Assembly (NCBI GenBank): GCA_040756735.1
Contig: JBFLYC010000020.1
Span: 114-64,113 of the forward strand
DNA length: 64,000 bases
Direction of reading: 5' to 3'
DNA from: Bacillota bacterium
GTDB taxonomy: Bacteria > Bacillota > DSM-16504 > Desulfitibacterales > Desulfitibacteraceae
In this document: piece after piece, positions 21,887 to 47,601 of the stretch
Layout of the letters: each line of letters starts with the position of its first letter
Numbering within the stretch: position 1 is the first letter of the stretch
The notes under the pieces: generated by a model
What the model saw: the letters and a program-made list of their open reading frames with translations, nothing else
Database searches by the model: none
Told to the model about the DNA's origin: nothing
Translations under genes and position numbers: made by a program

Positions 21887-21970
21887 AAAACTTATAGCAA
21901 CCTTAACTTTTCTATAACCTAAAATTTACCAAGACAGTTTAGTATTAAAAATGAGATTGGAGGGTATCTA

Positions 21971-23788: not shown

Positions 23789-23806
23789 AGAAACTGATAT
23801 ATATTT

Positions 23807-23844
23807 GCTAAAACGCTTTGTTCCTTGGAACAAAGCGTTTTAGC
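23807..23844 (+). terminator. terminator hairpin after the 5'-nucleotidase gene
   Basis: Perfect 18-bp arms GCTAAAACGCTTTGTTCC (23807-23824) and GGAACAAAGCGTTTTAGC (23827-23844). Confidence 0.6.
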
Positions 23845-23884
23845 TAGTCCATATTAATAATATACAGAAAATGAGGCGTGTCAG

Positions 23885-24342
23885 GTGAAACTCAATAAAT
23901 TGTTAATATCTGTAGTTCTAATTTCAATATTAATAAATAGTCTGTTTGCCTACCAGGCATATGGAGGAGACAAGACCTATAAAGAAGAGTTAACAGAATA
24001 CTATGAAAAGAAGATGGAAAAGCCTTTCTTTTTACTTATAGCTTTAGGCGGCTTAAAGGGAGCAAAAACAATCATCACCTTAGGCATTACTGGAATGATA
24101 ATCATTTTTGTATATATTCCCTATTAGGTGCCATCGGAGGAGTTTTTGTTGCAGGATTAATTGCTGGAGGGGCGATACATCTGATGCTTTTGTTTACAGC
24201 CTTTAAAATGACACCCAGAGAGATAGTTAATTTAGATTTGATAGCATCTGAAATAATTAGGGCTATGGCCGGAAGTATAGGCCTAATAAGCGCGATTCCG
24301 TTAACTGCATTTATTGGGGCCACCATGGGCAAAAAAAGGTAA
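23885..24342 (+). pseudogene. YibE/F-family membrane protein remnant (internal deletion plus frameshift)
   Basis: The first frame (23885-24127) matches the N-terminal TM region of the intact paralogue at 33602 (FFLLIALGGLKGAKTIITLGITGMIIIFVYIP vs GRIKGLKSIFSLIFTGIMIIFFLIPW). After the stop, another frame reads GAIGGVFVAGLIAGGAIHLM...IASEIIRAMAGSIGLISAIPLTAFIGATMGKKR*, the YibE/F C-terminal signature. Confidence 0.7.
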
Positions 24343-24537
24343 TTTTTGGCCCGGGAGATGTTCTGCTATTTCATAATAGCGGCAACCTGGTCCACTCTTC
24401 CGGTGGCAGTCGCCTTAACACGGTGGCGGCACTACCCAAAAATCACTGTATTGCAATAACCTCTTTGAGGGAGGCTGTTGTTATTTAGCCATGAACATTT
24501 ATAATTATAGGTATTATAAAATTAAAGGAGCTATTTA

Positions 24538-25338
24538 ATGAATGACATATTAATTGCAGTGATATTAGGCATAGTAGAAGGCTTAACTGAATTTATACCG
24601 GTTTCATCAACTGGTCACTTGATTATTGTAAGTAAGTTTGTAGAATTTGAAGGTCAATTTGCTACTACATTCAATGTTGTCATTCAAGTAGGAGCCATAC
24701 TCTCTGTAATAATTTATTTTCGGCGCAAACTCATTCCCTTTGGCAGGAACAAAACTATCTCGGAAAAGGCTTTGACATGGACCATTTGGAAAAAGACTAT
24801 TGTTGGTGTTCTTCCGGCGTTGTTTTTGGGCGCTTTATTTGGAAGCAAGATTGAGGAACTGCTGTTTAATCCTTTTACGGTATCCATTGCATTAGTTATC
24901 GGCGGAATATTTTTAATAATAATTGAAAAACAAAATAAATCAAATATCATTTCTTCCATTGAGAAATTGGATTATAAGACCGCATTTTTAATTGGAATTG
25001 TACAGTGTCTGGCCATGATACCAGGCACATCCAGATCGGCAGCTACTATAATAGGCGCAATGATTTTTGGATGCTCCCGTGTAGTAGCAGCAGAATTTTC
25101 CTTTTTCCTGGCTATCCCAACAATGATTGCCGCCTCTTCATATTCTTTGTTGAAATCAGGGTTTAGCTTAAATCTTATGCAAATCCAGACATTGTCTGTT
25201 GGATTTATAGTCTCGTTTATTGTAGCTCTATTAGTTATAGCAGGATTCATGAAGTATATTTCTCGAAACAGTTTCAAACCTTTTGGATATTACAGGATAT
25301 TGTTAGGACTGTTAGTAATTATATATTTTGCATTTTAG
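24538..25338 (+). CDS. uppP: undecaprenyl-diphosphate phosphatase
   Basis: 266-aa polytopic ORF. BacA/UppP motifs EGLTEFIPVSSTGHL and PGTSRSAATI. Confidence 0.93.
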   Translation: MNDILIAVILGIVEGLTEFIPVSSTGHLIIVSKFVEFEGQFATTFNVVIQVGAILSVIIYFRRKLIPFGRNKTISEKALTWTIWKKTIVGVLPALFLGALFGSKIEELLFNPFTVSIALVIGGIFLIIIEKQNKSNIISSIEKLDYKTAFLIGIVQCLAMIPGTSRSAATIIGAMIFGCSRVVAAEFSFFLAIPTMIAASSYSLLKSGFSLNLMQIQTLSVGFIVSFIVALLVIAGFMKYISRNSFKPFGYYRILLGLLVIIYFAF

Positions 25339-25424
25339 AATGTCATTAATGCCCTTCACAAATAAACTCTGCATCCTCCATTGTGTATTCTATTCCATGG
25401 GGGATTTTTATTTAAGGATAATAG

Positions 25425-25465
25425 CCCTTTGCACCTCATAGGACATGCAAAGGGTTTTGATTTTC
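25425..25465 (+). terminator. rho-independent terminator after uppP
   Basis: CCCTTTGCA (25425-25433) and TGCAAAGGG (25446-25454), followed by TTTTGATTTT. Confidence 0.75.
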
Positions 25466-25844
25466 TTAAAATACTCAGGGCAATATTTTTTGCATACATG
25501 GCGCTGGCAACTTTTATGAGGTTTATGATTTGTTATCTCATCCAAAAGGTAGCAGCCATCAGCAATAGCAGCCTGGAAATTGAACATTACAAAAATTAAT
25601 ATTGGTTTAATATGCCTTTTACCCTATATTTACTTTTTTATAACATGATATAGACAAAAAATTAACAGGGAGGACATATTAGGCATTGACGTAGCATGGG
25701 AGTGGCACACCTGTGAAAATAAGATGGCCGAAAGAATGAGTGTCTAGCTCCTGATGAGGGGTAAAATTTTAAAATTTTATGTTTTCCAAGCAGGATAAAT
25801 CCAAATTTTGTAGAATTAATATTGCGAACAAAAGTTATATACAA

Positions 25845-25858
25845 TGAACAAATGTTCA
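25845..25858. promoter_or_regulatory. TGAACA-N2-TGTTCA operator-like box (copy 2)
   Basis: TGAACAAATGTTCA within the identical 16-mer ATGAACAAATGTTCAA (25844-25859). A GAACAAA half-site lies ~20 nt upstream (25825-25831). It is ~200 nt upstream of the giant gene. Confidence 0.55.
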
Positions 25859-26055
25859 ATAAATGCATTTGCAGCGTTACAAAATAGATGATAGCAAGCT
25901 AAACCTTCAGTCAAGTGTGTTGCTTTATTAACGGTAAACAAAAATTTAATTTTAAAGAGAGGTGAAGAGAGTACACGTTTAATAACCGGGTGTAGTTAAA
26001 AAGGTTAAGTTAGATTGTTATTATTCTAACTAAAGGAAAAAAGGGAGGAAAGATT

Positions 26056-29000
26056 ATGCAAGGTAAAATACATAAAGGATTAAGTGTTTTATTGATACTT
26101 ACAATGCTTTTTAGTAGTCTATTTACTTTTTCTGACATTGGATTTATGTATGCAGAGGAAACACCACAATGGTTTGTTGAAACCTTTGATAATTGTGGAA
26201 ATACTGGAACAAGCTATACCACTGGGCACTTTGAAGGTAATTATGGAATCAGATGGGACTATATTGCTGCAAGAGGTAATTTAGATAATTATTCTATTGA
26301 TGGAAAAGGCTTAATGATTAGAAATGCATCTGAAAATGGTAAAATCTATGCTGAGTCTATTCCAGGGGGTATAGGAAGTTTTTCTGTTGACTTAAAGAAG
26401 GCCTTTACAGGTACAGCAGAACGTACAGTGCAGTTATTAATCAATGATATAATTGTGGATACATTCACCCTTGCACAATATGATCCTGAGACATTCCCTG
26501 TTCAGCAATTTGTAGTAACAGATATTAATGTTAGCGGTGATTTTAAATTAGAATTAAGGCACACGAATCCTTTAAGTGCACAAATTACCATCGATAACAT
26601 TAGATGGACCAGCTACACTGGTAACGGTGAAACACCACCACCAAACCTTACTCTCACCCATAACCCGGTAACAACTGCATGGGCAGGAGACGATATTAAC
26701 ATAGACTTTTCAGTAAATAATGCTATAGGTACCGTGACAGGTCATGTATACTATAAACCTGTAAGTGATAACGATTTTACTCCTATTAGCACAACCTCCA
26801 GTGCCATAATACCTGGTGATGAAGTAACAGAAAATATTGAATATTATATAGTAGTTGAGGACCAGGATGAAAGGGTGGCAAGAAGCCCGGAAACAGGGTT
26901 TCATGTTATTTCTGTCATGGAAAAACCAGAGCTGATAACCATAGCAGAAGCCAGATCCCTATCAGCTTCAACTGAAGTTAGAGTGGAGGGTATCATTACA
27001 GCTATCTTAGGCAGTGGACAAAATGTATATATTCAGGACGAGACTGCCGGCATAGTGATTAGATTAGGCTCTGCAGCCTTAAGCACAGGCTTGAGTGAAG
27101 GCGACAAAATCCAGGCAATTGGAACAATTGGAAGTTACGCCGGACTTGTTCAAGTAAATGTTGCCAATAAAATTGATTTAAAAACCGTAGAAGAAGGTGT
27201 AGGTGTACCTGAGGCAAAGCTTGTGACGATAGATGAAATCACCTCTAACCTGCAAGGACAGCTGTTAAAGGTAGAAGGTTTAGAGGTTGTTTCAATCGGC
27301 GCCCAAACACCTAATTATAATGTTGTTGCTAAAGATTCAGCAGAAAATCAAATCTTTTTAAGGGTTGAGAATACTGTTGACAAAACATTTTTCAATGTAG
27401 GTCAAGAACTTACTGTCACTGCTCCATTGGGTCAGTATAATGCTGATTTTCAATTAATGATCCGCAGAGCATCAGACTTAGAAGAGCTTGTTGATGAGTC
27501 AAAAGCAGCTCCGGTAACAGCCACACCGGAAGCTGGAGCAGTTGATGCAGGTACAGCAGTTACTTTATCGACAGTTACAGAAGGAGCAACAATTTACTAT
27601 ACAATAGGCGAGGGCGAGCCTCAGACTGAATATACTGAACCTATTATAATAAATATAGCAACAATAATTAAGGCTAAGGCAGTAAAGGAAGGTTTGGAAG
27701 ATAGTGAAATCCGCACCTTTGTTTACACAGTAAAGCAAGAGGGAGTATTATCTATTCTGGACGTTAAAAAGCTTCCAGTGAATACTGAGGCAGAAGTACA
27801 AGGTGTTGTAACGTTAGTTACCCACACAAATGAAGCTTATATTCAAGATGAATTGGCAGGATTGCAGGTTTTTATTTCTAATATCAAGAATAAAGTAAAA
27901 CCTGGTGATCTAATCAAGGCTAGAGGAAAAGTTTCACAATATAACGGTGAGTTGCAAATTGTTCCAAACTCATTAGATGACATAGATATACTAAGCAGTG
28001 ATAATCCTGTACCTGAGCCCTTAGAAGTAACCCTGCAGCAGCTTGTTCAAACACAGGGCCGTGTTACTGTAAGTCAAGCTCTGGATAATTACGCAGGAAA
28101 CGAAAAAACAATTACAGTAAGGGGTGTAATTACAGACGTCTTGCCAAATGGTGTATATGCTATGCAAATTGCAGATCCTACTGATCCAACAAAGGTATTA
28201 TCAGTTGCCTTACCTGCAGAATATAGAGAGAAATTTAATCCGGGCAATAATCCTGATGCAGTTGGCAGAATGGTGCTGGTAACAGGACAGGAGAAAGACT
28301 ATTATGGCAAGCCGGCAATAAGAAGAGTAGATAAATATGATCCCAATACTGGTATAACAACATATGGCAAATATCATGTTGGCTTTGATATTGAAGGTAT
28401 GAGGGTAACCACTGAGCCTTTTAAGGTTATTGCAAAAGACAATAATGGATTTACAGCTCGACAAGGGGATGTTGAAGTATATATATTCACGTTAAGGGCA
28501 TCAAACTATAATCATGTTGAAACAAAAATTGGTGACTGGTATTCCGCCACGGGAATTGCCGCTTACTACAATAGACCCCAGCTTAAGCTGGTAGATGGCA
28601 CGGATTTAAAATTCGAAGTTCCTCCTGGACAACAGGATCCTAGAGAACCTTTGGTCTTGGATATTAAACCAGGCAATTTTGTCTCTACATACGATAGAAG
28701 ACCATTGATTTCAGCAAGACTGGAAAAAACTGAAGCAGACATTGATTATGAAAATGTTAGATTGCTACTTAATGGAGAGAGTAAAGAATACACATTGGAT
28801 ATTGAAACAGGGATCATCACTTATCAGATTACTGAAGACCTGGACTATGGTGAGCATGATGTAGCAATTGTTGTTCCAGATGTAGAGGAAAGGGTGAAAA
28901 TATTTAACTGGTTCTTTAGAGTTGAAAAGGAAAATCCAACCTATAACTTCTACTATGGTATTCCCCACTCCCATACCGGGTACTCAGATGGCGCTGGGAC

Positions 29001-32000
29001 TCCGACAGCGGCCTTCAACCATGCCAAGAATAATAAATTGGACTTTCTATTTATCACTGATCACTCTAACTGGCTGGATGGTGTAGAAGAAGGGGGCGGC
29101 TATGGTTTTGAATATGAAGCAGCTGCCAATGAATACGTAGAAAAATTTAATCCGTTTACTGATGAGCCTTCCGAATGGATGAAGACAAGATTAGAGGCAG
29201 AAGCATTTAATCGAGAAAACCTTGGCACTTTTCTAGGGGTAAGGGGCTTTGAAATGACCTCCAGTACATGGGGGCACATGAATACAACTAATAGTGATAC
29301 CTATGTTGAAGCTAAAAAACAAATAGTATCCATTAGCCAATATTATGATTGGATTGTGGATGTGTCCAGCAGACCTGGGGCTAATGTATATAATGCATTC
29401 AACCACCCCAATTGGCCGGATGATTCTTTTAATAACCTGGCTTATGTACCAAAACTGGATAGATATATTAATGGAATTGAAGTTGCCAATGGAGCGCCGC
29501 CATATAGCTATTCCAGAGCTGAAGGGCACTATTGGAGATCCCTGGATAATGGATGGAGATTAGGGGCACTAAATGCTCAAGATAACCATGCGAAAAACTG
29601 GGGAGATCCGGATACATTAACAGTGGTTTTAGCAGAGGCCTTGGATGTAGATTCCCTTATCAACGCAATGAATGCAAGAAGATCCTACTCAACTGAAACA
29701 AGAACCCTGCAGCTGACTTTTAAAGGCAACGGTTATTGGATGGGTAGTGTTCTAGATGTTGAGATAGGTGAAAAAATAAACCTTGAGATCCTTGCTGAGG
29801 ATTCAAAGGTACCTATTGAGAAGCTTCAATTGATCACAAATGGTGGGTATATATTAGAAGAAAAAGTAGTTGGCGGGGCAAACAGTGCAGCATGGAACCT
29901 GGCAGTGGAAGCAACTGGAGGAGCCCAATGGTTTGTGGTAAAAGTAATCCACAGTAACGGGGCATGGGGTCATTCATCACCAATATTTACCACTGCCGGT
30001 GAAAATGATATAAAGCTTACAGCCATTAACGTTGACCCTAATCCCACTTTGCCGGGCTTTGAAACAAATATTGAAGCTACTGTAAGTAACATGGGGGTTA
30101 GAGGTATAGAAGGAATTCAGGTGAAATTCTATGCCAACACTATAAATGAAAACAACTTGATAGATACAGTAGACCTGGAAGGCAGACTCAATCCAGGCGC
30201 CAGCGCTGTATTAAGCGCAAAATGGCTGCCTGAAGGATACGGTGAGCAGCGGGTATTTGCAGTATTAACAGATATAGAAGGAGTAACCACTGTCACAGAG
30301 ATATCCATGAATGTAAAGGTTGTTAAACCAATAGGCAAAAAGATACTGTTTGATGGGGCTCATAACAATGCAGATGTACCGGGTACAGTTGTTAAAATAA
30401 TTGAAATGTTAAGATTGTACGGATATGAAGCTACAATAAACACACAAAAATTTACGCCAGAGCTTCTAGAAAGTGTAGATATTTTAATTATCAATATTCC
30501 ATTGAATGCAGCCAATAAATTTACAACTAATGAAGAAGATGCTATAGCTGATTGGGTTAAAGCAGGTGGTTCCATCATGCTGGCAGCCAAGTCCAATTTT
30601 AATCAGGATAGCACATTATTGAACAGTCTCATGGAAAAGCTGGGAAGTAGCATCCGCTTCAATGACGATAATATATACGAACCGGAAGATTCTGGCAAAT
30701 ATACGGGTGGAATGGTTTGGTCCATAGTAATGGATAATCTGCCACCAACTGAAAGTGGATTAAATGCCAACATGGAGGCCATACGAATATTCAGTGGATG
30801 TTCTTTGATAAATGCAGAGGGTGGGCCACTAGTAAATGATCCGGCAACAGAGCTGGAAATACTGCTATTGGCAAACGATACTTCATATACGGCTAACCCA
30901 GGACCTAATGCATATATTTACAATTTGATAGGAGAATTAAATGGCGGCACAATTCCTGTTATTGCCAAAGAGAAGGTTGGAAATGGTAGAATAATTGCAG
31001 CCGGAAGACACTTCTATTCAGATTTTGAAATAGGAAATAATGTTTCAAACACTGCATTGACTTTACAGGCAATTGACTGGCTGGCAGGATACGATAGAAT
31101 ACGGTCAATTGCTGATATCAGGGCTAATGCAAATGTGGGAGATGTTGTAACTGTTAGAGGTACTATCACAGCACCTACCAATCATTTTTTTGATGTAGTA
31201 TACATTCAGGATGAAACTTCAGGGGTAGCAGTATATGGTTCGCAAACGAAGGATAACCTGCCCCTGGGAACAGAAATTATAGCTACCGGTAAGGTAACGT
31301 ACTTCGAAGGAGAACTGGAATTAGCTTATGAGAACTATGATTACGAAGTAATTTATGTAGGTCCGGTAGAAAAGATAGAACCCTTGAAGGTATCCACCAA
31401 AGATGCCATGTCACCAGAGGTTGCGGGAATGCTTATAACCACTCAAGGAGTAATAACTGATTACGACCCGGTTGACGGTAACTTCAGAATTAATGATGGA
31501 AGCGGCAGTGCTTTCGTTCAAATTGATGGTTATCTAAACCTTGGAATTGAAAGATTTAAAATAGGAGATAATGTGTCAGTAACCGGTGTGGCATCCCACG
31601 GTTCCGTTGGTCCTAGAATCAGGGTGAGATATCCATCTGATTTGAAAGCTGTACAGCAAGAACCACCGGAGAAAGTAGAGATTAAAAGCGTAGAAGCAAC
31701 CAATGGACAAATAACAATAACATTGAATACAGCACCGGCAGAAGCACCAGATGAAAAAGACTTTACGGCAACAATAAGCATAAATGATGGAGAGGCAAAA
31801 GAATTAAAGCTAGAACATTTCTACTACGACGAAGATGTAACCGTAACCTTCACCTTTACTCCGGTAGCTGCAACAGAAGAAGAACAAAGAGTGATAGTTG
31901 CAGTAGCCTATGGTGATGGAACACCATGGGCTGCACAACCCTATACCATTGAAGCAGGGGACAGATCACAGTTCAATATAACTACTATTAGTAAACCTTC

Positions 32001-33507
32001 TGTAAATACACCATTTAGAATAAGCATCAGAGAAGCAATGGATACCCATGGAAACCTTCTTGATGGTAAGGTAAATGTAATAATTAAACATAATGAAGAA
32101 ACCTTGGTAAATGATATTGTAACATTTAACTTAGGCAGTGGAGTAATACCAGTAACTATATCTACTAAAGGGGAGCATCGGCTAGAGGTATTTATTGATG
32201 GAATCACTGCTCCAAAATCAGTAAGTGTATTAGTTGTCCCAATGGTTGAAATACAATTAGCTGAGGAAGATTATGATAAAGAGGGAAGGGTTACTGTTGA
32301 ATTAGGGGATATAGTGGAAGACACCAATGTAGAAATCATGTATGCCTTTGGTGAAGGTGAGACTAGAGTAGAATTGTCTATTGTAATTACTGTACCTACT
32401 GGAAGTGGTTTGCTTAGTATTTCTAACGTCGTATTAACCAATAATAGTCTAGTAATGAATCTGTCGGTGGATGGCTTAAATGAAAGAAAGGTATTCTTGA
32501 AGTTACCCAAGCCAATTGACATTCCTTCAGATCGGGTTGGAGCCTTCCACAGAAAAGGAGATGTTTGGGAATTTAGAATAGCAAATGTTATCGGTGATGA
32601 AGTAGAAGGTTATGAAGTAGAATTTGAAACGGATCTAAGCGCTATAGCATTGGCAGAAATAGTAGACGTACCTGCATCTATAGAAGCATCTGTAAGTAAT
32701 CGTAATAGAGTAACATTAAGCTGGGATGTCGTACATGGAGCAGCTTATGAATTGATTCGTAAAGTAAGTAACTCCGGAGCAGTAAAGATCATTCCAATAG
32801 AGGATACTGAATATGTGGATATAGCAGGATATAATACTACTTACCAGTATCAAGTAAGGGCTGTGAAGGAAGGATATCATTCTGATCTATCCCCCGCAGT
32901 GGAAGTTACTACTGGTTCTGCTCCCAGTAGCAGTAGTAAATCTTCTAAACCTATTGTTGACGAAGAGGAACCAGTTGAAGAAATAAAGGTTCATTTAACA
33001 GATATTGCCGGACATTGGGCTGAGGGATATATTAAGGAATTAGTAGCTTTGGGAGCTATTGATGGCTACAGTGACGGTACCTTTAGGCCAAATAACAATA
33101 TAACAAGGGCAGAATTTGTCAAGATTGTTGTTGGGGCCTTCAATCTTCAGGCTAAAGGCGAAAAAACATTTAAAGATACCGAGGGACATTGGGCCAGGGA
33201 TTATATTGCAACAGCCCATGCCCATGGGATTATTAATGGCTATAATGATAATACCTTTGGGGCAGAAGACTTTATCACCAGAGAGCAAGTGGTTTTAATT
33301 ATTTCCCGTGCAGCAGAATTAACTACTGTAAAATATGAAAAGAGATTTATAGATGATGAAAAAATTTCAAGCTGGGCCAGGGATGCAGTTTATATAGCTG
33401 CGACAAATGGTATAGTAGATGGTTATCTGGACAACACCTTCAGGCCGCAAGGAAATGCAACTAGAGCAGAAGCAGTAAAAATTATTGTTGAATCTCTAAA
33501 AAAATAA
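26056..33507 (+). CDS. 2483-aa S-layer-anchored multidomain surface protein: 4 OB-fold modules + PHP-family (CehA/McbA-like) phosphoesterase + CARDB/FN3/Ig-like spacers + 3 SLH repeats
   Basis: RBS AAGGGAGG and a signal peptide. OB modules: VRVEGIITAILGSGQNVYIQDETAGIVIRL (from nt 26977), AEVQGVVTLVTHTNEAYIQDELAGLQVFI (27790), ITVRGVITDVLPNGVYAMQIADP (~28120), VTVRGTITAPTNHFFDVVYIQDETSGVAVYG (31147). PHP motifs YYGIPHSHTGYSDG (28951-28992) and DFLFITDHSNW. Hex/chitobiase C-terminal-like GATIYYTIGEG. CARDB-like region ~30007-30330. Three SLH repeats ~32990-33500 (DIAGHWAEGYI.., DTEGHWARDYI.., SSWARDAVYIA..). Confidence 0.85.
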   Translation: MQGKIHKGLSVLLILTMLFSSLFTFSDIGFMYAEETPQWFVETFDNCGNTGTSYTTGHFEGNYGIRWDYIAARGNLDNYSIDGKGLMIRNASENGKIYAESIPGGIGSFSVDLKKAFTGTAERTVQLLINDIIVDTFTLAQYDPETFPVQQFVVTDINVSGDFKLELRHTNPLSAQITIDNIRWTSYTGNGETPPPNLTLTHNPVTTAWAGDDINIDFSVNNAIGTVTGHVYYKPVSDNDFTPISTTSSAIIPGDEVTENIEYYIVVEDQDERVARSPETGFHVISVMEKPELITIAEARSLSASTEVRVEGIITAILGSGQNVYIQDETAGIVIRLGSAALSTGLSEGDKIQAIGTIGSYAGLVQVNVANKIDLKTVEEGVGVPEAKLVTIDEITSNLQGQLLKVEGLEVVSIGAQTPNYNVVAKDSAENQIFLRVENTVDKTFFNVGQELTVTAPLGQYNADFQLMIRRASDLEELVDESKAAPVTATPEAGAVDAGTAVTLSTVTEGATIYYTIGEGEPQTEYTEPIIINIATIIKAKAVKEGLEDSEIRTFVYTVKQEGVLSILDVKKLPVNTEAEVQGVVTLVTHTNEAYIQDELAGLQVFISNIKNKVKPGDLIKARGKVSQYNGELQIVPNSLDDIDILSSDNPVPEPLEVTLQQLVQTQGRVTVSQALDNYAGNEKTITVRGVITDVLPNGVYAMQIADPTDPTKVLSVALPAEYREKFNPGNNPDAVGRMVLVTGQEKDYYGKPAIRRVDKYDPNTGITTYGKYHVGFDIEGMRVTTEPFKVIAKDNNGFTARQGDVEVYIFTLRASNYNHVETKIGDWYSATGIAAYYNRPQLKLVDGTDLKFEVPPGQQDPREPLVLDIKPGNFVSTYDRRPLISARLEKTEADIDYENVRLLLNGESKEYTLDIETGIITYQITEDLDYGEHDVAIVVPDVEERVKIFNWFFRVEKENPTYNFYYGIPHSHTGYSDGAGTPTAAFNHAKNNKLDFLFITDHSNWLDGVEEGGGYGFEYEAAANEYVEKFNPFTDEPSEWMKTRLEAEAFNRENLGTFLGVRGFEMTSSTWGHMNTTNSDTYVEAKKQIVSISQYYDWIVDVSSRPGANVYNAFNHPNWPDDSFNNLAYVPKLDRYINGIEVANGAPPYSYSRAEGHYWRSLDNGWRLGALNAQDNHAKNWGDPDTLTVVLAEALDVDSLINAMNARRSYSTETRTLQLTFKGNGYWMGSVLDVEIGEKINLEILAEDSKVPIEKLQLITNGGYILEEKVVGGANSAAWNLAVEATGGAQWFVVKVIHSNGAWGHSSPIFTTAGENDIKLTAINVDPNPTLPGFETNIEATVSNMGVRGIEGIQVKFYANTINENNLIDTVDLEGRLNPGASAVLSAKWLPEGYGEQRVFAVLTDIEGVTTVTEISMNVKVVKPIGKKILFDGAHNNADVPGTVVKIIEMLRLYGYEATINTQKFTPELLESVDILIINIPLNAANKFTTNEEDAIADWVKAGGSIMLAAKSNFNQDSTLLNSLMEKLGSSIRFNDDNIYEPEDSGKYTGGMVWSIVMDNLPPTESGLNANMEAIRIFSGCSLINAEGGPLVNDPATELEILLLANDTSYTANPGPNAYIYNLIGELNGGTIPVIAKEKVGNGRIIAAGRHFYSDFEIGNNVSNTALTLQAIDWLAGYDRIRSIADIRANANVGDVVTVRGTITAPTNHFFDVVYIQDETSGVAVYGSQTKDNLPLGTEIIATGKVTYFEGELELAYENYDYEVIYVGPVEKIEPLKVSTKDAMSPEVAGMLITTQGVITDYDPVDGNFRINDGSGSAFVQIDGYLNLGIERFKIGDNVSVTGVASHGSVGPRIRVRYPSDLKAVQQEPPEKVEIKSVEATNGQITITLNTAPAEAPDEKDFTATISINDGEAKELKLEHFYYDEDVTVTFTFTPVAATEEEQRVIVAVAYGDGTPWAAQPYTIEAGDRSQFNITTISKPSVNTPFRISIREAMDTHGNLLDGKVNVIIKHNEETLVNDIVTFNLGSGVIPVTISTKGEHRLEVFIDGITAPKSVSVLVVPMVEIQLAEEDYDKEGRVTVELGDIVEDTNVEIMYAFGEGETRVELSIVITVPTGSGLLSISNVVLTNNSLVMNLSVDGLNERKVFLKLPKPIDIPSDRVGAFHRKGDVWEFRIANVIGDEVEGYEVEFETDLSAIALAEIVDVPASIEASVSNRNRVTLSWDVVHGAAYELIRKVSNSGAVKIIPIEDTEYVDIAGYNTTYQYQVRAVKEGYHSDLSPAVEVTTGSAPSSSSKSSKPIVDEEEPVEEIKVHLTDIAGHWAEGYIKELVALGAIDGYSDGTFRPNNNITRAEFVKIVVGAFNLQAKGEKTFKDTEGHWARDYIATAHAHGIINGYNDNTFGAEDFITREQVVLIISRAAELTTVKYEKRFIDDEKISSWARDAVYIAATNGIVDGYLDNTFRPQGNATRAEAVKIIVESLKK

Positions 33508-33535
33508 AGTAATATAAATATAAAACAAGATAAAT

Positions 33536-33567
33536 GAAAGCTCTTCAGTATTGATTGGAGAGCTTTC
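33536..33567 (+). terminator. hairpin after the giant gene
   Basis: GAAAGCTCT (33536-33544) and AGAGCTTTC (33559-33567). The T-run is displaced (AAACTGTTCTTTTT). Confidence 0.5.
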
Positions 33568-33601
33568 AAACTGTTCTTTTTAAACAACGTGGAGGGTAAA
33601 T

Positions 33602-34768
33602 ATGAAAAACAAGGCAAATATAATAATAACTACCAGTATAGTTCTTGTTACCATAATTATTATTTATTCTTCAGGTATACTATTTAGAGGAATAGACCTG
33701 AGAAGAAAGGATCTTAACTTTGAAAAAGCACTAGTATTAAAGGTCTTCTCAGAGACTCTAAATAAAGATAGAACAATACCAAATATGTATCTTGGGCATC
33801 AAGATATCCAAGTGAAAATACTAACCGGAGAGTTTAAAGGGGAGATACATACTCTAAAAAATTCGTTAGGAAGAACATATAATGTTCATACAAGAGAAAA
33901 TATGGAAATTGTAGTCAGCATATATAGCCATGATGGTGTTATAGAAAGCATCATGGTTTATAGTCATTCAAGAAGTAAAACAATATATTTTCTTGTTGGC
34001 CTTTTCTTTATAGTATTACTTGCTGTCGGCAGGATTAAAGGTTTAAAATCCATCTTTTCTTTAATCTTCACAGGAATTATGATTATTTTCTTTTTAATAC
34101 CCTGGATTTTGAAGGGTTATAACCCAATTTTAATTGCCATTATTACTGCTTCCTTATCTACAATTGTAACCTTTTATATGGCAACCGGATGGAGCAAAAA
34201 GACACTGGCTGCTTCTACAGGAACGGTTCTAGGAGTTACTATCGCAGGAAGTATTTCTTACTGGGCAGGTAGAATTGCACAATTATCTGGGATGACAATG
34301 GATAAGGCAGAACAGCTAATTTACATAGCTGATGATACGGGTATGCAGGTTGGAGGACTTATGTTTGCAGCAATATTGATAGCTTCTTTAGGCGCAATCA
34401 TGGATGTGGCCATGTCAATTACTTCATCTGTATTTGAGATTCATGGTGTTAAAAAGAACCTCTCCAGGAAGGCCCTGTTTAAATCCGCAATGAATGTAGG
34501 ACAAGATATTATAGGCACCATGACTAATACCTTGATTTTAGCATTTACCGGAGGTTTACTAAATATGCTAATCATTGTTATGGCATATAGGATGCCCTAT
34601 GTACAATTTATAAATCTTGATCTTTTCGCTATAGAATTTATTCAGGGGTTAGCAGGTAGTATAGGAATTGTTTTAACTGTCCCATTAACAGCCTTAGCTG
34701 CTTCCTGGCTGGCAAAGGAGTTTATCATAAAAAACAATAAGCCTGGTAAAGTAAAGGCGACAAGGTAA
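33602..34768 (+). CDS. YibE/F family membrane protein (intact copy)
   Basis: 388 aa. N-terminal TM, a ~100-aa extracytoplasmic segment, then a polytopic core ending in FIQGLAGSIGIVLTVPLTALAASWL. Confidence 0.8.
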   Translation: MKNKANIIITTSIVLVTIIIIYSSGILFRGIDLRRKDLNFEKALVLKVFSETLNKDRTIPNMYLGHQDIQVKILTGEFKGEIHTLKNSLGRTYNVHTRENMEIVVSIYSHDGVIESIMVYSHSRSKTIYFLVGLFFIVLLAVGRIKGLKSIFSLIFTGIMIIFFLIPWILKGYNPILIAIITASLSTIVTFYMATGWSKKTLAASTGTVLGVTIAGSISYWAGRIAQLSGMTMDKAEQLIYIADDTGMQVGGLMFAAILIASLGAIMDVAMSITSSVFEIHGVKKNLSRKALFKSAMNVGQDIIGTMTNTLILAFTGGLLNMLIIVMAYRMPYVQFINLDLFAIEFIQGLAGSIGIVLTVPLTALAASWLAKEFIIKNNKPGKVKATR

Positions 34769-34777
34769 CAGGAAGGG

Positions 34778-35197
34778 ATGATTCTTATTATGGAAAAAAT
34801 CAAGAGAAAATTAGATGAATTAGAGGAATATACAGAGATTCTTTCAATGGTTTCCACCTATAGCAAGGAAGATTTCATGAATAATCCAATATACTATGGT
34901 GGTGCTGAACGATTTATTCTTCTGGGATATCATAATATTTTAGAGGCAAGCAAACTGATATGTGAGCATTGCCGTTTTTCGAATATACACAGTAAAGATA
35001 TTATAAAATCCCTTGAAATAAATAAAGTAATCCCACCGTGGCTTGTTAGTAACATAAATAAAAGAAAAAAATATATATTTACCTTAAAATATGATTATCT
35101 AAGACTTATGAACAAAGAAGAATTATACTTTCTTTTGAAGGACATAATAAGTGATTTTAGACACTTCAAAAAATATGTACTTGAATACATTATTTAA
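34778..35197 (+). CDS. DUF86/HepT-like (HEPN-fold) protein with degenerate active-site motif, no MNT partner
   Basis: 139 aa, AT-rich. The layout resembles YutE-type DUF86 (..LEEYTEIL..EDFMNNPIYYGGAERFILLGYHNILEASKLI..). At the position of the RN..VH.Y motif it reads KRKKYIFTLKYDY. Confidence 0.4.
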   Translation: MILIMEKIKRKLDELEEYTEILSMVSTYSKEDFMNNPIYYGGAERFILLGYHNILEASKLICEHCRFSNIHSKDIIKSLEINKVIPPWLVSNINKRKKYIFTLKYDYLRLMNKEELYFLLKDIISDFRHFKKYVLEYII

Positions 35198-35203
35198 TGA
35201 ATA

Positions 35204-35500
35204 CTACTCTATATCAACAGTCTTCCTATTTTTATGAGAAGTAGGTTTCTGTGATTTTTCTTTATTATTCACAAGAGGATTTTTATAAAGAATACCTGCT
35301 GCTAGAGCCGTGAGGGGAATAGGATAGATGAATCCAATGCTTCCAGACAATATCCTAATGACTTCTATGGAAATAGATTTTACATTCATAATACGAGATA
35401 ATGGTATATTAGAGGCGGTTAAAACCAATAAATGATGCATGGAAGCCCCTGTATAGGCTAGAATCAAAGTGTTTGACATTGTACCCATAATATCCTTTAG
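35204..35500 (-). pseudogene. YibE/F C-terminal fragment (5'-truncated)
   Basis: KDIMGTMSNTLILAYTG...IEVIRILSGSIGFIYPIPLTALAAGIL parallels the last ~85 aa of the intact copy (DIIGTMTNTLILAFTG...IEFIQGLAGSIGIVLTVPLTALAAS). An upstream in-frame stop lies at ~35501. Confidence 0.7.
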
Positions 35501-35603
35501 CTAGTGATTTTTGACATAACCATAATCGAAAAACAGAGAATGTCAATTAGGATTTAATACATTTAGAAAATTCTACATAAAGAGTACTCATGAACTGGTA
35601 ATT

Positions 35604-36410
35604 ATGTCAACTACAGATATTCATGCCCACGTAATGCATTATGATTACATGAAAGACAGCGTCGACGAAGGCATCGGTCTGGCGAAAGTAGCTACTTTGG
35701 TTCAACAGGTCAGGGGGAAATATCCCAATACAATTCTGGTTGATGCGGGCGATGTTATTCAAGGAAGTATTCTCGGTGACTTAGAAGCACTGGTAAAGCC
35801 CATACAAAAAGGTGATTTGCATGCAGTTATCGGGTCAATGAACATGATGGGTTATGATGCCGTCTGTGTGGGCAACCATGAGTTTAATTACGGGTTAGAT
35901 TTTTTAAAAAGGGCATATGAGGGAGCGCAGTTTCCCCTGGTAAATGCTAATGTTTACCAGGCAGGAACTGAGGACAACTATTTTACCCCTTATGTAATAC
36001 TGGAGCGGGAAGTAGATGGAAATTCCATTAAAATAGGGATTATTGGCTTTGTTCCACCACAAATTATGATCTGGGATAAAATCCGCATAGAGGGAAGGGT
36101 GTATACCAAGGGAATAGTTGAGACTGCAAAAAAATTTATTCCGGAGATGAAAGCTGAAGGAGCAACCTAATTATTAATAACTTTGTGGGCGAGACAGTAG
36201 CCAGGTTAAACACCTTTTTTGCCAGGGTAATGGAAAACAAAGTAGTACAGCTTATTAATTTTGTATTCCAATATTCTAGAGGTTGTTAAAGTAAATGCGA
36301 AAGAACTGAAAAGTTGGCTGGAAGTCTCGGCAGCTAACTTCAGCCAGATTGACCCAACAGCAATGAGGGGAAGCTGTTCTGATCAGAGGCTTCCTCATTT
36401 TTTATGGTGA
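35604..36410 (+). pseudogene. 2',3'-cyclic-nucleotide phosphodiesterase/3'(5')-nucleotidase (CpdB/YfkN-like) remnant
   Basis: The N-terminal metallophosphatase part lacks a signal peptide (STTDIHAHVMHYDY, DAGDVIQGS, GNHEFNYGLDFL) and stops at 36170. Further homologous pieces lie in other frames (NNFVGETVARLNTFFARVMENKVVQLI; VNAKELKSWLEVSAANFSQIDP...*36410). The catalytic C-domain is missing. Confidence 0.7.
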
Positions 36411-36498
36411 CTGACAGTAATTGAGAAAAAAAATTGTTAATCAAGGAGGAATTTTAAATAAAACGACGAATATGTATATGAACAAAATACCAAGATGT

Positions 36499-36512
36499 TG
36501 GACATTTGTTCA
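36499..36512. promoter_or_regulatory. TGAACA-N2-TGTTCA operator-like box (copy 3, inverted, 1 mismatch)
   Basis: TGGACATTTGTTCA is the reverse complement of TGAACAAATGTCCA. It also pairs with TGAACAAAAT at 36479-36488. It ends 32 nt upstream of the punA ATG. Confidence 0.5.
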
Positions 36513-36544
36513 TGCTTTGTATTTAATGCAAAAGGAGGGATTAG

Positions 36545-37363: not shown

Positions 37364-37495
37364 CATTTTTTATATTTATTAGGCAGGAATTTTTGCTTCC
37401 CATGAAGAATTAAAAGTTAGACGAACAAATAATCCTATTTCTGAACAAAATTTCATTTCAACGATTTAGTGATCGGTTGACAAAGGAGATGTCGA

Positions 37496-38167
37496 ATGCA
37501 AACTAAAGATATTGCTCAATATATTGATCATACCTTACTAAAACCGGAGGTGACCAGGAGGCAGATTATCAAACTTTGTGAGGAAGCCCAGGAGTATGGA
37601 TTTGCTTCAGTATGCGTCAACCCTTGTAATATAAATACTGCGTACCAGCAATTAAAGGGCAGTGGAGTTAAGATATGTACTGTCATCGGCTTTCCCCTGG
37701 GAGCTACTATTACAGCAGTAAAAGCATTTGAGACAAGAGAAGCGATTGCAGCCGGAGCTGAGGAGATAGACATGGTTATCAATATCGGTGCGCTGAAGGA
37801 CAGGAATGAGGTGTATGTTCACAATGATATTGAAGCAGTAGTCAAGGCGGCCCAGGGTAAGATTGTTAAAGTTATTATAGAAACGGGCCTGTTAACAGAT
37901 GACGAAAAGGTGCTGGCCTGCCAATTGGCCATGAGAGCCGGCGCTCATTTTGTTAAAACATCTACCGGATTTAACGCCAAAGGAGCAACGGAAGAAGACG
38001 TTCGGCTGATAAGAGATGTAGTTGGCTCCGAAATAGGTGTTAAAGCATCAGGAGGGGTCAGGTCCCTGAATGAGTTATTGGCTATGCTGGAAGCTGGAGC
38101 TACCAGAATCGGCACCAGCTCGGGGGTAGCCATTATCAATGGGAATGGAATAGAAGCTGCATATTAA
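37496..38167 (+). CDS. deoC: deoxyribose-phosphate aldolase
   Basis: 223 aa. [33 protein letters not shown] (Schiff-base Lys), VKASGGVR. Confidence 0.94.
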
Positions 38168-45222: not shown

Positions 45223-46191
45223 ATGACAAAAGTTTCTTCAGATAAAATTCAGATGGCTGTTCAGGCAGCACGTTTATACTATGAGTGCGATGAAAACCAG
45301 CAACAAATAGCCAAAAAACTAAATATTTCGCGGCCTCAGGTTTCCAGGTTGTTGAACCTGGCCCGGGAAGAAGGAATAGTGGAAATTAGAATTAACAGTC
45401 CCCTGGAAACTTACTCCAGGCTGGAAAATATTTTGTGTCATCACTTTGGTCTGAAACAGGTAATAGTTGTTCCAATGTCAACTACCGATAGCAATTTGGT
45501 CAAAAAGAATCTGGCCAGGGTGACGGCTAATTTTTTAGATCAAATAGTGGAAAATGGCCAGATTATTGGTATTCCATGGGGTTCAACCCTCAGTTATGTT
45601 GCCAAGTATTTGAAAGAACGGGAGACGAAGGATATCACTATCGTCCAGTTAAAGGGAGGAGTGGGGCGTATCTCCGGCAAAGTAGATACTTATCACCCGG
45701 TGATTACCTTCGCTCACAAGTTAAAAGCTACACCCTGTTTTTTACCGGCGCCAAGCATAGTTGACAACCTCCAAGTAAAGGAGATTCTAATGTCAGATGC
45801 CAAGATTAATGAAATACTGGAACTGGGAATAAAAGCAGATGTGGCTATTTATCCTATTGGCATTCCTGTGCCTGATTCAGTTTTGGTGCAGGCCGGATAC
45901 TTTACCCAAGAAGAGATGATTACTCTGCAAGAAAAGGGAGCAGTGGGGGATATATGTTCACGGTATTTTCTTGCCAATGGAGAAATTGTTGACCAGGATT
46001 TAAATGACCGCACCATTGGCATTGAGCTGGACAAGCTCCAGCTGAAAAAGTATGCCATAGCCGTTGCCGGAGGCAAAGACCATGCTCCGGGAATTTTAGG
46101 AGCTTTACGAGGAAAGTATCTCAACACTTTGATTACCGATGAGGCAGCAGCTCTTGAGGTAATCAAGCTGGCGGGAATAAAATCTGGTTAA
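45223..46191 (+). CDS. deoR: SorC/DeoR-type sugar-phosphate-binding transcriptional repressor (deoxyribonucleoside regulator-like)
   Basis: 322 aa. N-terminal HTH AARLYYECDENQQQIAKKLNISRPQVSRLLNLAREEGIV and a SorC-type effector domain (IGIPWGSTL, VQLKGG). It is the last gene of the nucleoside cluster, as with B. subtilis DeoR. Confidence 0.85.
   Translation: MTKVSSDKIQMAVQAARLYYECDENQQQIAKKLNISRPQVSRLLNLAREEGIVEIRINSPLETYSRLENILCHHFGLKQVIVVPMSTTDSNLVKKNLARVTANFLDQIVENGQIIGIPWGSTLSYVAKYLKERETKDITIVQLKGGVGRISGKVDTYHPVITFAHKLKATPCFLPAPSIVDNLQVKEILMSDAKINEILELGIKADVAIYPIGIPVPDSVLVQAGYFTQEEMITLQEKGAVGDICSRYFLANGEIVDQDLNDRTIGIELDKLQLKKYAIAVAGGKDHAPGILGALRGKYLNTLITDEAAALEVIKLAGIKSG

Positions 46192-46248: not shown

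Positions 46249-47601
<1,353 letters not shown>

What the first reader, a model, noticed from the sequence alone, without database searches (positions are those of the whole stretch)
26056..33507. 2483-aa SLH-anchored protein combining four OB-fold modules with a PHP phosphoesterase core
A module with the pattern V.V.G.(I/V)T...(8-12)...YIQDE..G(I/L/V).V recurs four times, from nt 26977, 27790, ~28120 (degenerate) and 31147. To my eye it is the OB-fold found at the N-terminus of wall-anchored nuclease/nucleotidase proteins such as B. subtilis YhcR. Between copies 3 and 4 lie four regions. First, a PHP/CehA-type metal-phosphoesterase region (HSH at 28966-28974, then FITDHSNW, to ~30000). Second, a CARDB-like domain. 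Third, a ~250-aa flavodoxin/GATase-like region (KKILFDGAHNN...AIDWLAG). Fourth, Ig/FN3-like spacers. Three SLH repeats close the protein. Four putative nucleic-acid-binding modules flanking one catalytic core suggest a processive or multivalent polymer-binding surface enzyme. The first ~190 residues (WFVETFDNCGNTG...IDNIRWTSY) are a domain I cannot assign.
Basis: partly seen in the sequence, partly recalled or inferred. Interest (0 to 1): 0.6.

Follow-up and report, generated by a model that had tools for sequence, protein, structure and literature searches.

The report
DeoR-controlled surface PHP enzyme with OB folds
This giant cell-surface protein combines a metal-dependent PHP phosphoesterase core with three nucleic-acid-binding double-OB units and shares a DeoR operator with the neighbouring nucleoside-salvage genes, so it is most likely an uncharacterised kind of extracellular DNA-degrading enzyme.

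Summary
ORF 26056-33507 encodes a 2483-aa secreted protein with three SLH repeats, and every motif sits at the stated coordinates.

The conserved heart is a colinear supermodule of about 1000 aa: Ig, PHP barrel plus beta-sandwich (CehA/McbA type), CARDB, GIFT domain, double OB. It recurs in about 90 large Firmicutes proteins and in 69 of 75 further long representatives. All nine canonical PHP metal ligands are invariant in 86 homologues.

AF2 models are confident (pLDDT 89-92). They match the PHP protein BVU_3505, the RNase AM PHP domain, and the IFT52 GIFT domain.

New evidence on function:
- The promoter carries an exact Bacillus-type DeoR operator, shared with the adjacent secreted 5'-nucleotidase, PNP and deoC genes. 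Three of only four genome-wide matches lie in this locus.
- Relatives are fused to 5'-nucleotidase, LTD and Endonuclease_1 domains.
- The genome lacks four classical secreted nuclease families.

Best reading, about 0.6: a surface-anchored nuclease that feeds DNA into nucleoside salvage. No activity has been shown.

The parts
25816..25845 (+). Promoter-like site (TTAATA-18-TACAAT) whose -10 abuts the DeoR box
   Evidence: a consensus match only.
25845..25858 (.). DeoR-type operator TGAACAAATGTTCA, 211 nt upstream of the ATG. A GAACAAAAGTT half-site lies about 20 nt further upstream.
   Evidence: Matches the B. subtilis DeoR operator quoted in PMC11229326.
26056..33507 (+). Gene for the 2483-aa SLH-anchored PHP-GIFT-OB protein
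26056..26154 (+). Sec-type signal peptide (aa 1-33: basic n-region, hydrophobic core, MYA|EE)
   Evidence: Read directly from the sequence; inference.
26161..26640 (+). Unassigned N-terminal domain (aa 36-195), shared with other surface proteins
   Evidence: No Pfam, NCBIfam or PDB match. Homologues. Its partners include the EEP-nuclease proteins P0097 and P0103.
26653..26925 (+).
   Evidence: No Pfam match. Conserved with P0002 and P0006.
26968..27510 (+). Double-OB unit A (DUF5689-type, aa 305-485)
   Evidence: PF18942, 48.7 bits. Aligns end to end with unit C, E 4e-6.
27526..27726 (+). CHB_HEX_C_1 / Fn3_assoc domain (aa 491-557)
27778..28620 (+). Double-OB unit B (aa 575-855). The first barrel matches PF01336 and the ExeM/NucH OB region; the second barrel is aa ~780-855.
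28063..28380 (+).
   Evidence: PF19886, 35.6-38.8 bits.
28657..28920 (+). Ig-like domain that starts the conserved supermodule (aa 868-955)
   Evidence: Weak Big_13 match. All-beta in the AF2 model. Colinear in homologues.
28933..30000 (+). PHP barrel plus C-terminal beta-sandwich (CehA/McbA domain, aa 960-1315). Metal ligands: H971, H973, D978, H1003, E1066, H1074, H1117, D1176, H1178.
   Evidence: NF038032, 93 bits against a cut-off of 80. Ligands invariant in 86 sequences. AF2 pLDDT 91.9. Foldseek matches 3e38 (1.9e-12) and RNase AM 7ug9 (2.3e-5).
30013..30315 (+). CARDB domain (aa 1320-1420)
   Evidence: PF07705, 24.6 bits against 22.7. PDB profile hits 2kut and 2l0d.
30328..31110 (+). GIFT domain (GATase1-like fold, aa 1425-1685) with invariant D1433, H1436, N1438, N1523, D1538 and N1665, and near-invariant S1655 and E1658 (84 of 86)
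   Evidence: PDB profile hit to IFT52, E 1.8e-7, and to OST48. Foldseek 5fms_A, TMt 0.76. Invariants.
31123..31671 (+). Double-OB unit C (aa 1690-1872), the last part of the conserved supermodule
   Evidence: Two five-strand beta units in the AF2 model.
31678..32925 (+). Ig/FN3-like spacer region (aa 1875-2290)
   Evidence: Weak fn3, Filamin and RGI_lyase matches.
32989..33495 (+). Three SLH repeats (cell-wall anchor)
   Evidence: PF00395, 148.7 bits, three stretches. Sap SLH 6bt4, E 6e-12. The genome has a CsaB-like pyruvyl transferase and 37 SLH repeats.
33535..33568 (+). Terminator-like hairpin after the stop codon
21873..21886 (.). Identical DeoR box upstream of the secreted 5'-nucleotidase/LysM gene (21971-23788)
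36499..36512 (.). DeoR box (1 mismatch) upstream of the purine nucleoside phosphorylase gene
37442..37455 (.). DeoR box TGAACAAAATTTCA upstream of deoC, identical to the B. subtilis left-palindrome core
33602..34768 (+). YibE/F membrane protein gene, a conserved neighbour of this family
   Evidence: PF07907. Also adjacent to the homologue in L001 and L010.
45223..46191 (+). DeoR (SorC-family) repressor gene
   Evidence: NF053881, E 2.9e-104.

Best explanation
The gene encodes a Sec-exported protein anchored to the wall by SLH repeats. I read it as an extracellular nucleic-acid phosphodiesterase, most likely acting on DNA.

Proposed mechanism. Three double-OB units, plus a DUF6359 OB-like insert, hold the polymer. 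Two of these units flank the catalytic block. A trinuclear-metal PHP barrel cuts phosphodiester bonds. By analogy with characterised PHP nucleases (RNase AM, PolX and Pol III PHP domains) it probably acts exonucleolytically and releases 5'-mononucleotides.

The PHP barrel is permanently joined to a beta-sandwich, a CARDB domain and a GIFT domain with its own invariant polar site. The role of that GIFT site is unknown; substrate or product binding is my guess.

Proposed pathway. The LysM-anchored 5'-nucleotidase encoded upstream would dephosphorylate the mononucleotides. The BMP-type ABC transporter would import the nucleosides. PNP, Pdp, Cdd and DeoC would catabolise them. DeoR would repress the whole set until deoxyribose-5-phosphate accumulates.

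Shown here: the domain architecture, ligand conservation, fold matches, the shared operator, and the fusion partners. Inferred: the substrate, the polarity of cleavage, the products, DeoR binding, and the role of the GIFT domain.
For: 1. Catalytic competence. H971, H973, D978, H1003, E1066, H1074, H1117, D1176 and H1178 follow the canonical PHP ligand order and are invariant in 86 homologues. The region scores 93 bits against the NCBIfam CehA/McbA cut-off of 80. The AF2 model has pLDDT 91.9. Its best PDB matches are the PHP plus beta-sandwich protein 3e38 (E 1.9e-12) and the RNase AM PHP domain, a 5'-3' exoribonuclease (E 2.3e-5).

2. Nucleic-acid-type OB modules. PF01336 scores 37 bits. The OB region of the ExeM/NucH model gives E 1.1e-7. 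DUF5689 and DUF6359 are above cut-off. PDB profile hits include YgiW, YhaM and RPA2. In ExeM the YhcR-like double-OB region is essential for DNase activity (PMC6085458).

3. Regulation. The box TGAACAAATGTTCA lies at the promoter of this gene and of the 5'-nucleotidase. Variants lie before PNP and deoC. That is 7 strand hits at 5 positions, against 0.77 strand hits expected. Genome-wide there are only 4 matches in 3.67 Mb, 3 of them here, and none for the control pattern. The box matches the B. subtilis DeoR operator, whose effector is deoxyribose-5-phosphate. A DeoR homologue is encoded at 45223.

4. Context. The locus holds a secreted 5'-nucleotidase, PNP, DeoC, Cdd, a BMP-type ABC transporter and Pdp.

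5. Fusions in relatives, counted by hand. 14 carry Metallophos plus 5_nucleotid_C, 25 carry LTD, and P0043 carries Endonuclease_1. This is the same slot that the SNase or EEP domain fills in YhcR, ExeM and Xds.

6. The genome (99.4% complete) has no SNase, Endonuclease_NS, NucA/NucB or Endonuclease_1 gene.

7. The supermodule is a fixed unit. It is colinear in all homologues and present in 69 of 75 further long representatives.
Against: - No biochemical data exist for any member that I could find.
- The enzymes that give the family its name, CehA and McbA, are carbaryl hydrolases, not phosphoesterases. This point rests on my own knowledge.
- The DeoR box and the nucleoside genes are absent from all eight homologue loci examined, L001-L004, L006-L008 and L010 (L001 also with up to 2 mismatches; gene contexts). 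The regulatory link is therefore specific to this genome.
- OB folds and GIFT domains can also bind sugars. CHB_HEX_C and CARDB are common on glycosidases and proteases.
- The Pfam PHP model itself scores below its cut-off (21 bits against 26.4).
- A membrane-anchored EEP protein elsewhere in the genome could also act as a nuclease.
Confidence: 0.6

Rival explanations
1. It is a phosphatase or phosphodiesterase for small nucleotides (pAp, 3'- or 5'-nucleotides, cyclic or dinucleotides, short oligonucleotides), not a depolymerase. The OB units would only hold it near nucleic-acid debris.
For: Many PHP enzymes act on small phosphoesters; examples from my own knowledge are histidinol phosphatase, Cv1693-type pAp phosphatases and YcdX. 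The PDB profile search also hit small PHP phosphoesterases, 3e0f and 9etk. The DeoR and nucleoside context fits this reading equally well.
Against: Three double-OB units flanking the core, plus LTD and Endonuclease_1 fusions in relatives, suggest polymer handling. The locus already has a dedicated 5'-nucleotidase. The genome lacks four classical secreted nuclease families, so it has no obvious depolymerase apart from this protein and one membrane-anchored EEP protein.
Confidence: 0.15
2. It acts on a non-nucleic-acid polymer or glycoconjugate of the envelope or the environment, such as teichoic-acid phosphodiesters or phosphorylated polysaccharides. The OB, GIFT, CHB_HEX_C and CARDB domains would then bind carbohydrate.
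For: GIFT relatives include OST48 of the oligosaccharyltransferase complex. CHB_HEX_C_1 and CARDB are typical of glycan-active surface proteins. Some homologues carry CBM_4_9, F5/8 or pectate-lyase-like domains. The homologue in L003 lies near glycerol-3-phosphate genes.
Against: The OB modules match nucleic-acid OB families and the OB region of ExeM/NucH, not CBMs. The DeoR operator and fusions to 5'-nucleotidase and Endonuclease_1 point to nucleic acids.
Confidence: 0.12
3. It is a CehA/McbA-like hydrolase of carbamates, esters or amides, or a non-catalytic eDNA-binding S-layer adhesin in which the PHP barrel is only structural.
For: The best NCBIfam model is named after carbaryl hydrolases. 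It is a very large surface protein with many binding modules.
Against: All nine metal ligands are invariant across sequences that fall to 23-25% identity, which argues for a working metal site. Nothing in the context or the fusions suggests xenobiotic metabolism.
Confidence: 0.08

Closest known systems
B. subtilis YhcR; Shewanella ExeM / Vibrio Xds / NucH; streptococcal SpnA, SsnA and SWAN (wall- or membrane-anchored extracellular nucleases with N-terminal OB folds)
   Same: All are secreted, anchored to the cell surface, and carry tandem YhcR-type OB folds next to a metal-dependent catalytic domain. Relatives of the present protein also carry LTD and 5'-nucleotidase domains, as ExeM/Xds and YhcR do. 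The OB region is essential in ExeM (PMC6085458). The OB part of the NF033681 model matches aa 594-662.
   Different: Here the catalytic domain is a PHP barrel locked to CARDB and GIFT domains, not an EEP or SNase domain. NF033681 scores 31 bits against a cut-off of 300. The anchor is SLH rather than LPXTG or a rhombosortase signal. The OB units lie on both sides of the catalytic block.
PHP-family nucleases and phosphoesterases (RNase AM/YciV, PolX and Pol III PHP exonucleases) and the structural-genomics protein BVU_3505 (PDB 3e38)
   Same: They share the (beta/alpha)7 PHP fold with the canonical H-H-D-H-E-H-H-D-H ligand set. BVU_3505 also has the appended beta-sandwich.
   Different: Those enzymes are cytoplasmic or small. 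None is a giant surface protein, and none is fused to GIFT, CARDB or OB arrays. Sequence similarity is marginal: profile E 4e-4 to 0.5.
CehA/McbA family metallohydrolases (NCBIfam NF038032)
   Same: The protein passes the domain model's cut-off (93 against 80 bits), and NCBI names several homologues this way.
   Different: The enzymes that name the family hydrolyse the carbamate carbaryl (my own knowledge). Here the context, regulation and fusions point to nucleic acids.
GIFT domains of IFT52, OST48 and GldG
   Same: They share the fold: Foldseek 5fms_A TMt 0.76, and profile E 1.8e-7 to IFT52.
   Different: Here the domain is extracellular and fused to an enzyme. It carries invariant D-x2-H-x-N, N, D and N residues plus near-invariant S and E. 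I did not compare these positions with IFT52 or OST48.

Membership tests
PHP superfamily / CehA-McbA metallohydrolase domain | Profile match above the curated cut-off | tested here: met
   NF038032 scores 93 bits against a cut-off of 80. Pfam PF02811 alone is below threshold, 21 against 26.4 bits.
PHP superfamily / CehA-McbA metallohydrolase domain | Nine metal ligands in the canonical order (HxH, D, H, E, H, H, DxH) | tested here: met
   H971, H973, D978, H1003, E1066, H1074, H1117, D1176 and H1178 are invariant in 86 of 86 sequences. The canonical order is taken from established knowledge of PHP structures.
PHP superfamily / CehA-McbA metallohydrolase domain | PHP barrel fold | tested here: met
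   AF2 pLDDT 91.9 and pTM 0.91. Foldseek matches 3e38 at 1.9e-12 and 7ug9 at 2.3e-5.
PHP superfamily / CehA-McbA metallohydrolase domain | Metal-dependent hydrolase activity | not testable with these tools
   Needs an enzyme assay.
OB-fold nucleic-acid-binding domain (PF01336, YhcR-type) | Profile match above cut-off | tested here: met
   Unit B scores 37 bits against 27. Units A and C are below threshold for PF01336 but are homologous to unit B. DUF5689 and DUF6359 are above their cut-offs.
OB-fold nucleic-acid-binding domain (PF01336, YhcR-type) | Five-stranded beta-barrel | tested here: inconclusive
   The AF2 secondary structure of unit C shows two blocks of five strands. Coordinates could not be inspected, and units A and B were not modelled.
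OB-fold nucleic-acid-binding domain (PF01336, YhcR-type) | Binds nucleic acid | not testable with these tools
   Needs EMSA or a similar assay.
ExeM/NucH/YhcR extracellular nucleases | EEP or SNase catalytic domain | tested here: not met
   NF033681 scores 31 bits against 300 and covers only the OB part. No PF03372 or PF00565 match in the protein.
GIFT domain (IFT52/OST48/GldG) | Sequence profile and fold match | tested here: met
   PF23355 is below threshold, 21.6 against 27.2 bits. The family profile hits IFT52 at E 1.8e-7, and Foldseek gives TMt 0.76 to 5fms_A.
SLH-anchored surface proteins | Three SLH repeats, plus SCWP pyruvylation machinery in the genome | tested here: met
   PF00395 with three stretches. 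CsaB-like PF04230 at 176 bits. 37 SLH repeats in the genome. Localisation itself was not tested.
DeoR regulon (Bacillus type) | Operator matching TTGAACA-N-TTCAA at the promoter, and a DeoR gene present | tested here: met
DeoR regulon (Bacillus type) | DeoR binding and dR5P-dependent derepression | not testable with these tools

The most novel reading that the evidence does not exclude
The Ig-PHP-CARDB-GIFT-double-OB supermodule is a new class of extracellular nuclease machine that has not been characterised. It is widespread: 1294 representative clusters at 50% identity match its PHP plus beta-sandwich domain at E <= 1e-10. In this reading the GIFT domain is not a passive spacer. Its invariant D-x2-H-x-N...N...D...N positions, with near-invariant S and E, would form a second functional site, for example product binding, a second hydrolytic step, or a clamp that makes the enzyme processive. 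The conserved YibE/F or HupE/UreJ membrane neighbour would supply metal to the trinuclear centre outside the cell.
Probability: 0.25. Interest if true: 0.75.

Novelty: new variant of a known kind. Interest (0 to 1): 0.6.

Why it matters
To my knowledge, every characterised secreted bacterial nuclease uses a beta-beta-alpha-Me, SNase, EEP, PLD or NucB-type catalytic domain. A PHP-based surface nuclease would add a new catalytic solution to extracellular DNA turnover, which matters for nutrient scavenging, biofilm remodelling and the fate of environmental DNA.

It would also give a function to a large protein family currently labelled only 'CehA/McbA family metallohydrolase', and to a bacterial GIFT domain.

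This window offers an unusually testable case. An exact DeoR operator ties the gene to a complete pathway of 5'-nucleotidase, nucleoside ABC transporter and catabolic enzymes. Induction by DNA or deoxyribonucleosides, and growth on DNA, can therefore be checked directly.

Tried and rejected
- **Whole-model Foldseek.** The search with the 1011-aa model was dominated by meaningless multi-sandwich hits to transglutaminases and GH2 enzymes, with TM about 0.1. Only the IFT52 hit was usable. I therefore modelled the PHP part separately.
- **Single-sequence PDB search of the PHP part.** It gave only chance-level hits.
- **N-terminal domain.** It has no Pfam, NCBIfam or PDB assignment. There was only a weak hint, E 0.031 in 2 of 12 members, to a T9SS surface endonuclease family.
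- **Riboswitch or leader RNA.** None was found in the 717-bp upstream region or elsewhere in 21000-39000.
- **DeoR box in homologue loci.** None in L001-L004, L006-L008 or L010.
- **Nucleoside genes next to homologues.** Not found.
- **Other box matches.** The match at 47250 lies inside gdhA. The fourth genome-wide match lies inside an Uma2-family gene. Both are probably chance.
- **Literature.** Searches found no study of this family.
Full report
**Observation.** ORF 26056-33507(+) is open and encodes 2483 aa.
- YIQDE at aa 325, 595 and 1716.
- The V.V.G.(I/V)T...YIQDE pattern starting at nt 26977 and 31147, a looser copy at 27790, and a degenerate one near 28120.
- HSH at nt 28966-28974, followed by FITDHSNW.

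The N-terminus looks like a Sec signal peptide. This is read directly from the sequence.

**Domain map**:
- An unassigned domain, aa 36-195.
- A spacer with no family match, aa 200-290.
- DUF5689, aa 305-474.
- CHB_HEX_C_1, aa 491-554.
- A tRNA_anti-codon OB fold, aa 594-641. This stretch also matches the OB part of the ExeM/NucH model.
- DUF6359, aa 706-761.
- The CehA/McbA PHP-type metallohydrolase domain, aa ~960-1315. It scores 93 bits against a cut-off of 80.
- CARDB, aa 1324-1408.
- A region with sub-threshold IFT52_GIFT, ABC_transp_aux and DUF4350 matches, aa 1430-1544.
- A further OB/DUF5689-like stretch, aa 1693-1863.
- Weak fn3-like spacers.
- Three SLH repeats, which also match the Sap SLH crystal structure.

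**The repeats are three double-OB units.** Unit A (aa 305-485) aligns end to end with unit C (aa 1690-1872) at E 4e-6. The first barrel of unit B aligns with unit C at E 8e-10, and the C-terminal end of unit B (KIGDWYSATG...) aligns with the end of unit C. So there are three double-barrel units.

A family profile also hits the OB proteins YgiW, YhaM and RPA2 in the PDB. Nothing placed these modules in carbohydrate-binding families.

**A conserved supermodule.** A search with aa 955-1700 found 90 large proteins, mostly from Firmicutes. The closest is from Alkaliphilus peptidifermentans at 76% identity.

BLAST of aa 865-1875 against these proteins shows one colinear match of about 1000 aa in essentially all of them. 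The unit is: Ig, PHP barrel plus beta-sandwich, CARDB, GIFT, double OB. The majority consensus of the alignment also shows a double-OB unit immediately upstream. The catalytic block is thus usually flanked by OB units on both sides.

An exhaustive HMMER search with the PHP plus beta-sandwich part found 2413 representative clusters at E <= 1e-3, 1294 at E <= 1e-10 and 279 at E <= 1e-30. Of 75 new representatives of at least 1000 aa, 69 also have CARDB and GIFT, and 67 of those have the double OB as well. The supermodule is therefore a fixed evolutionary unit in a sizeable family.

The family is patchy among relatives. Only 2 of the 31 genomes searched carry it: the window's own genome, in single copy, and one of its 30 relatives.

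**The PHP core.** Nine residues are invariant in 86 aligned homologues that fall to about 25% identity: H971, H973, D978, H1003, E1066, H1074, H1117, D1176 and H1178. Their order (HxH, D, H, E, H, H, DxH) is the canonical trinuclear-metal ligand set of PHP enzymes, by established knowledge.

An AF2 model of aa 955-1320 is confident, with pLDDT 91.9 and pTM 0.91. Its best PDB matches are BVU_3505, a PHP barrel with an appended beta-sandwich (3e38, E 1.9e-12), and the PHP domain of RNase AM, a 5'-3' exoribonuclease (7ug9, E 2.3e-5). The second refutation condition, a missing ligand set, is therefore not met either.

**The GIFT domain.** The family profile hits IFT52 at E 1.8e-7 and also hits OST48. 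In the 1011-aa supermodule model (pLDDT 89.4, pTM 0.75) the only meaningful Foldseek match is the IFT52 N-terminal domain, with TMt 0.76.

The domain carries its own invariant polar residues: D1433, H1436, N1438, N1523, D1538 and N1665, with S1655 and E1658 conserved in 84 of 86 sequences. That suggests a functional site. I could not inspect coordinates to see where it lies relative to the PHP metals.

**Evidence on function: context and regulation.** The window is a nucleoside-salvage locus. In order, it holds:
- a secreted 5'-nucleotidase with a LysM domain (21971);
- UppP;
- the giant gene;
- a YibE/F membrane protein;
- a HepT-like protein;
- a truncated CpdB-like fragment;
- purine nucleoside phosphorylase, DeoC and cytidine deaminase;
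- a BMP-type ABC transporter;
- pyrimidine nucleoside phosphorylase;
- a DeoR homologue (NF053881, E 2.9e-104).

ATGAACAAATGTTCAA occurs identically 98 nt upstream of the 5'-nucleotidase ATG and 211 nt upstream of the giant gene's ATG. Variants lie before PNP (1 mismatch) and deoC (2 mismatches). That is 7 strand hits at 5 positions, against 0.77 strand hits expected; none of 100 shuffles reached 7.

In the whole 3.67-Mb genome the pattern TGAACAAANKTTCA occurs four times. Three are these promoter sites, and the control pattern gives none. The fourth lies inside an Uma2-family gene.

The published B. subtilis DeoR operator is 5'-ATTGAACAAAATTTCAATTACCAATTTACATATGTTCAA-3', and its effector is deoxyribose-5-phosphate (PMC11229326). 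The deoC box here (TGAACAAAATTTCA) is identical to the core of its left palindrome. The box before the giant gene combines the TGAACA and TGTTCAA elements. Upstream half-sites (GAACAAA) accompany the boxes.

At the giant gene the box abuts a -10-like TACAAT. A terminator-like hairpin follows the stop codon.

The gene is thus predicted to belong to the DeoR regulon together with the nucleotidase and the catabolic genes. DeoR binding itself is inferred.

**Evidence on function: fusions and genome inventory.** In the precomputed Pfam lists, counted by hand:
- 14 homologues also carry Metallophos plus 5_nucleotid_C;
- 3 more carry Metallophos alone;
- 25 carry the lamin-tail domain;
- one (P0043) carries Endonuclease_1.

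JGI names some of them 'DNA/RNA endonuclease YhcR with UshA esterase domain'. These are the partners of the EEP or SNase domain in YhcR, ExeM and Xds. In ExeM the YhcR-like double-OB region is essential for DNase activity (PMC6085458).

The genome, 99.4% complete, has no SNase, Endonuclease_NS, NucA/NucB or Endonuclease_1 gene. Its only EEP protein is a 353-aa membrane-anchored one.

**Anchor.** The genome has a CsaB-like pyruvyl transferase and 37 SLH repeats. The SLH anchoring system is therefore in place.

**Most likely mechanism.** I read the protein as a surface-anchored, DeoR-controlled phosphodiesterase. It would hold nucleic acid, most likely DNA, through its OB units and cut it at the PHP metal centre. 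By analogy with other PHP nucleases it is probably an exonuclease that releases 5'-mononucleotides.

The neighbouring 5'-nucleotidase would then dephosphorylate the nucleotides. The ABC transporter would import the nucleosides, and PNP, Pdp, Cdd and DeoC would catabolise them. Deoxyribose-5-phosphate would feed back through DeoR.

Confidence is about 0.6 for 'extracellular nucleic-acid phosphoesterase'. It is lower, about 0.4, for the exonuclease and 5'-product detail.

**Caveats.**
- No member has been characterised in the literature I could search.
- The enzymes that name the family are carbaryl hydrolases (my own knowledge).
- The DeoR box and the nucleoside genes are absent from all eight homologue loci examined.
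- OB and GIFT domains can bind sugars.

**N-terminal domain.** It remains unassigned. It does recur, sometimes in two copies, at the N-terminus of other large surface proteins. These include P0097 (CHB_HEX_C, EEP nuclease, T9SS tail) and P0103 (EEP nuclease, two 5'-nucleotidase modules, LPXTG). They also include fn3/BNR and YDG-domain proteins. It is therefore a general surface-protein module, not one specific to nucleases.

**Comparison and novelty.** Functionally the protein resembles the YhcR, ExeM/Xds and SpnA class of OB-decorated surface nucleases. It is not a member of that class, because the EEP or SNase catalytic domain is absent.

It is a member of the PHP superfamily and of the CehA/McbA domain family. 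That family is annotated in databases, but I found no functional study of this architecture.

I rate it a new variant of a known kind: a surface nuclease-like enzyme built on a PHP-GIFT catalytic supermodule. Interest is 0.6.

Noticed in passing
window 33602-34768; L001 16731-17894; L010 5088-6254: A YibE/F membrane protein gene lies directly next to the PHP-GIFT gene in three genomes: this window, A. peptidifermentans, and a genome of a different family. In the third it lies upstream rather than downstream. In two Bacillaceae (L007, L008) a divergent HupE/UreJ-type metal-transporter-like gene takes the neighbouring position instead. This may be a membrane partner, perhaps for metal supply.
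   Followed up: partly
window 34778-35197; L003 9464-9877: A small HepT-like (DUF86) gene lies near the giant gene here. One also lies immediately upstream of the Caloranaerobacter homologue.
   Followed up: no
L006 18069-19763; L003 16676-18403: A PGM_PMM-family mutase of about 570 aa follows the homologue in Natronincola directly, and in Caloranaerobacter with one gene between. I did not notice a phosphopentomutase (deoB) among the window's ORFs between 14 and 52 kb. A PGM2-type phosphopentomutase role is conceivable.
   Followed up: no
window 35604-36170 and 35204-35488(-): The 188-aa ORF matches only the N-terminal third of 2',3'-cyclic-nucleotide phosphodiesterase/3'-nucleotidase (CpdB-like, profile positions 28-218 of 648). 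It looks like a truncated remnant. The adjacent minus-strand ORF resembles a YibE/F C-terminal fragment.
   Followed up: partly
window 26161-26640 (aa 36-195): An unassigned domain of about 155 aa with invariant E, F, Y, W...IDN.W positions. It recurs, sometimes twice per protein, on T9SS-sorted Bacteroidota proteins and on Firmicutes surface enzymes. No Pfam or PDB match.
   Followed up: partly
window 25339-26055: The upstream intergenic region is unusually long at 717 bp. It has no Rfam match. Apart from the DeoR box and a weak promoter-like site, its content is unexplained.
   Followed up: partly
G000:C78:74055-75116 (L009 456-1517): A 353-aa EEP-family protein with an N-terminal membrane anchor. 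It is the only other candidate extracytoplasmic nuclease or phosphatase found in the genome.
   Followed up: partly
window 47250-47263: A 2-mismatch DeoR-like box lies inside the glutamate dehydrogenase gene. It is probably chance.
   Followed up: no
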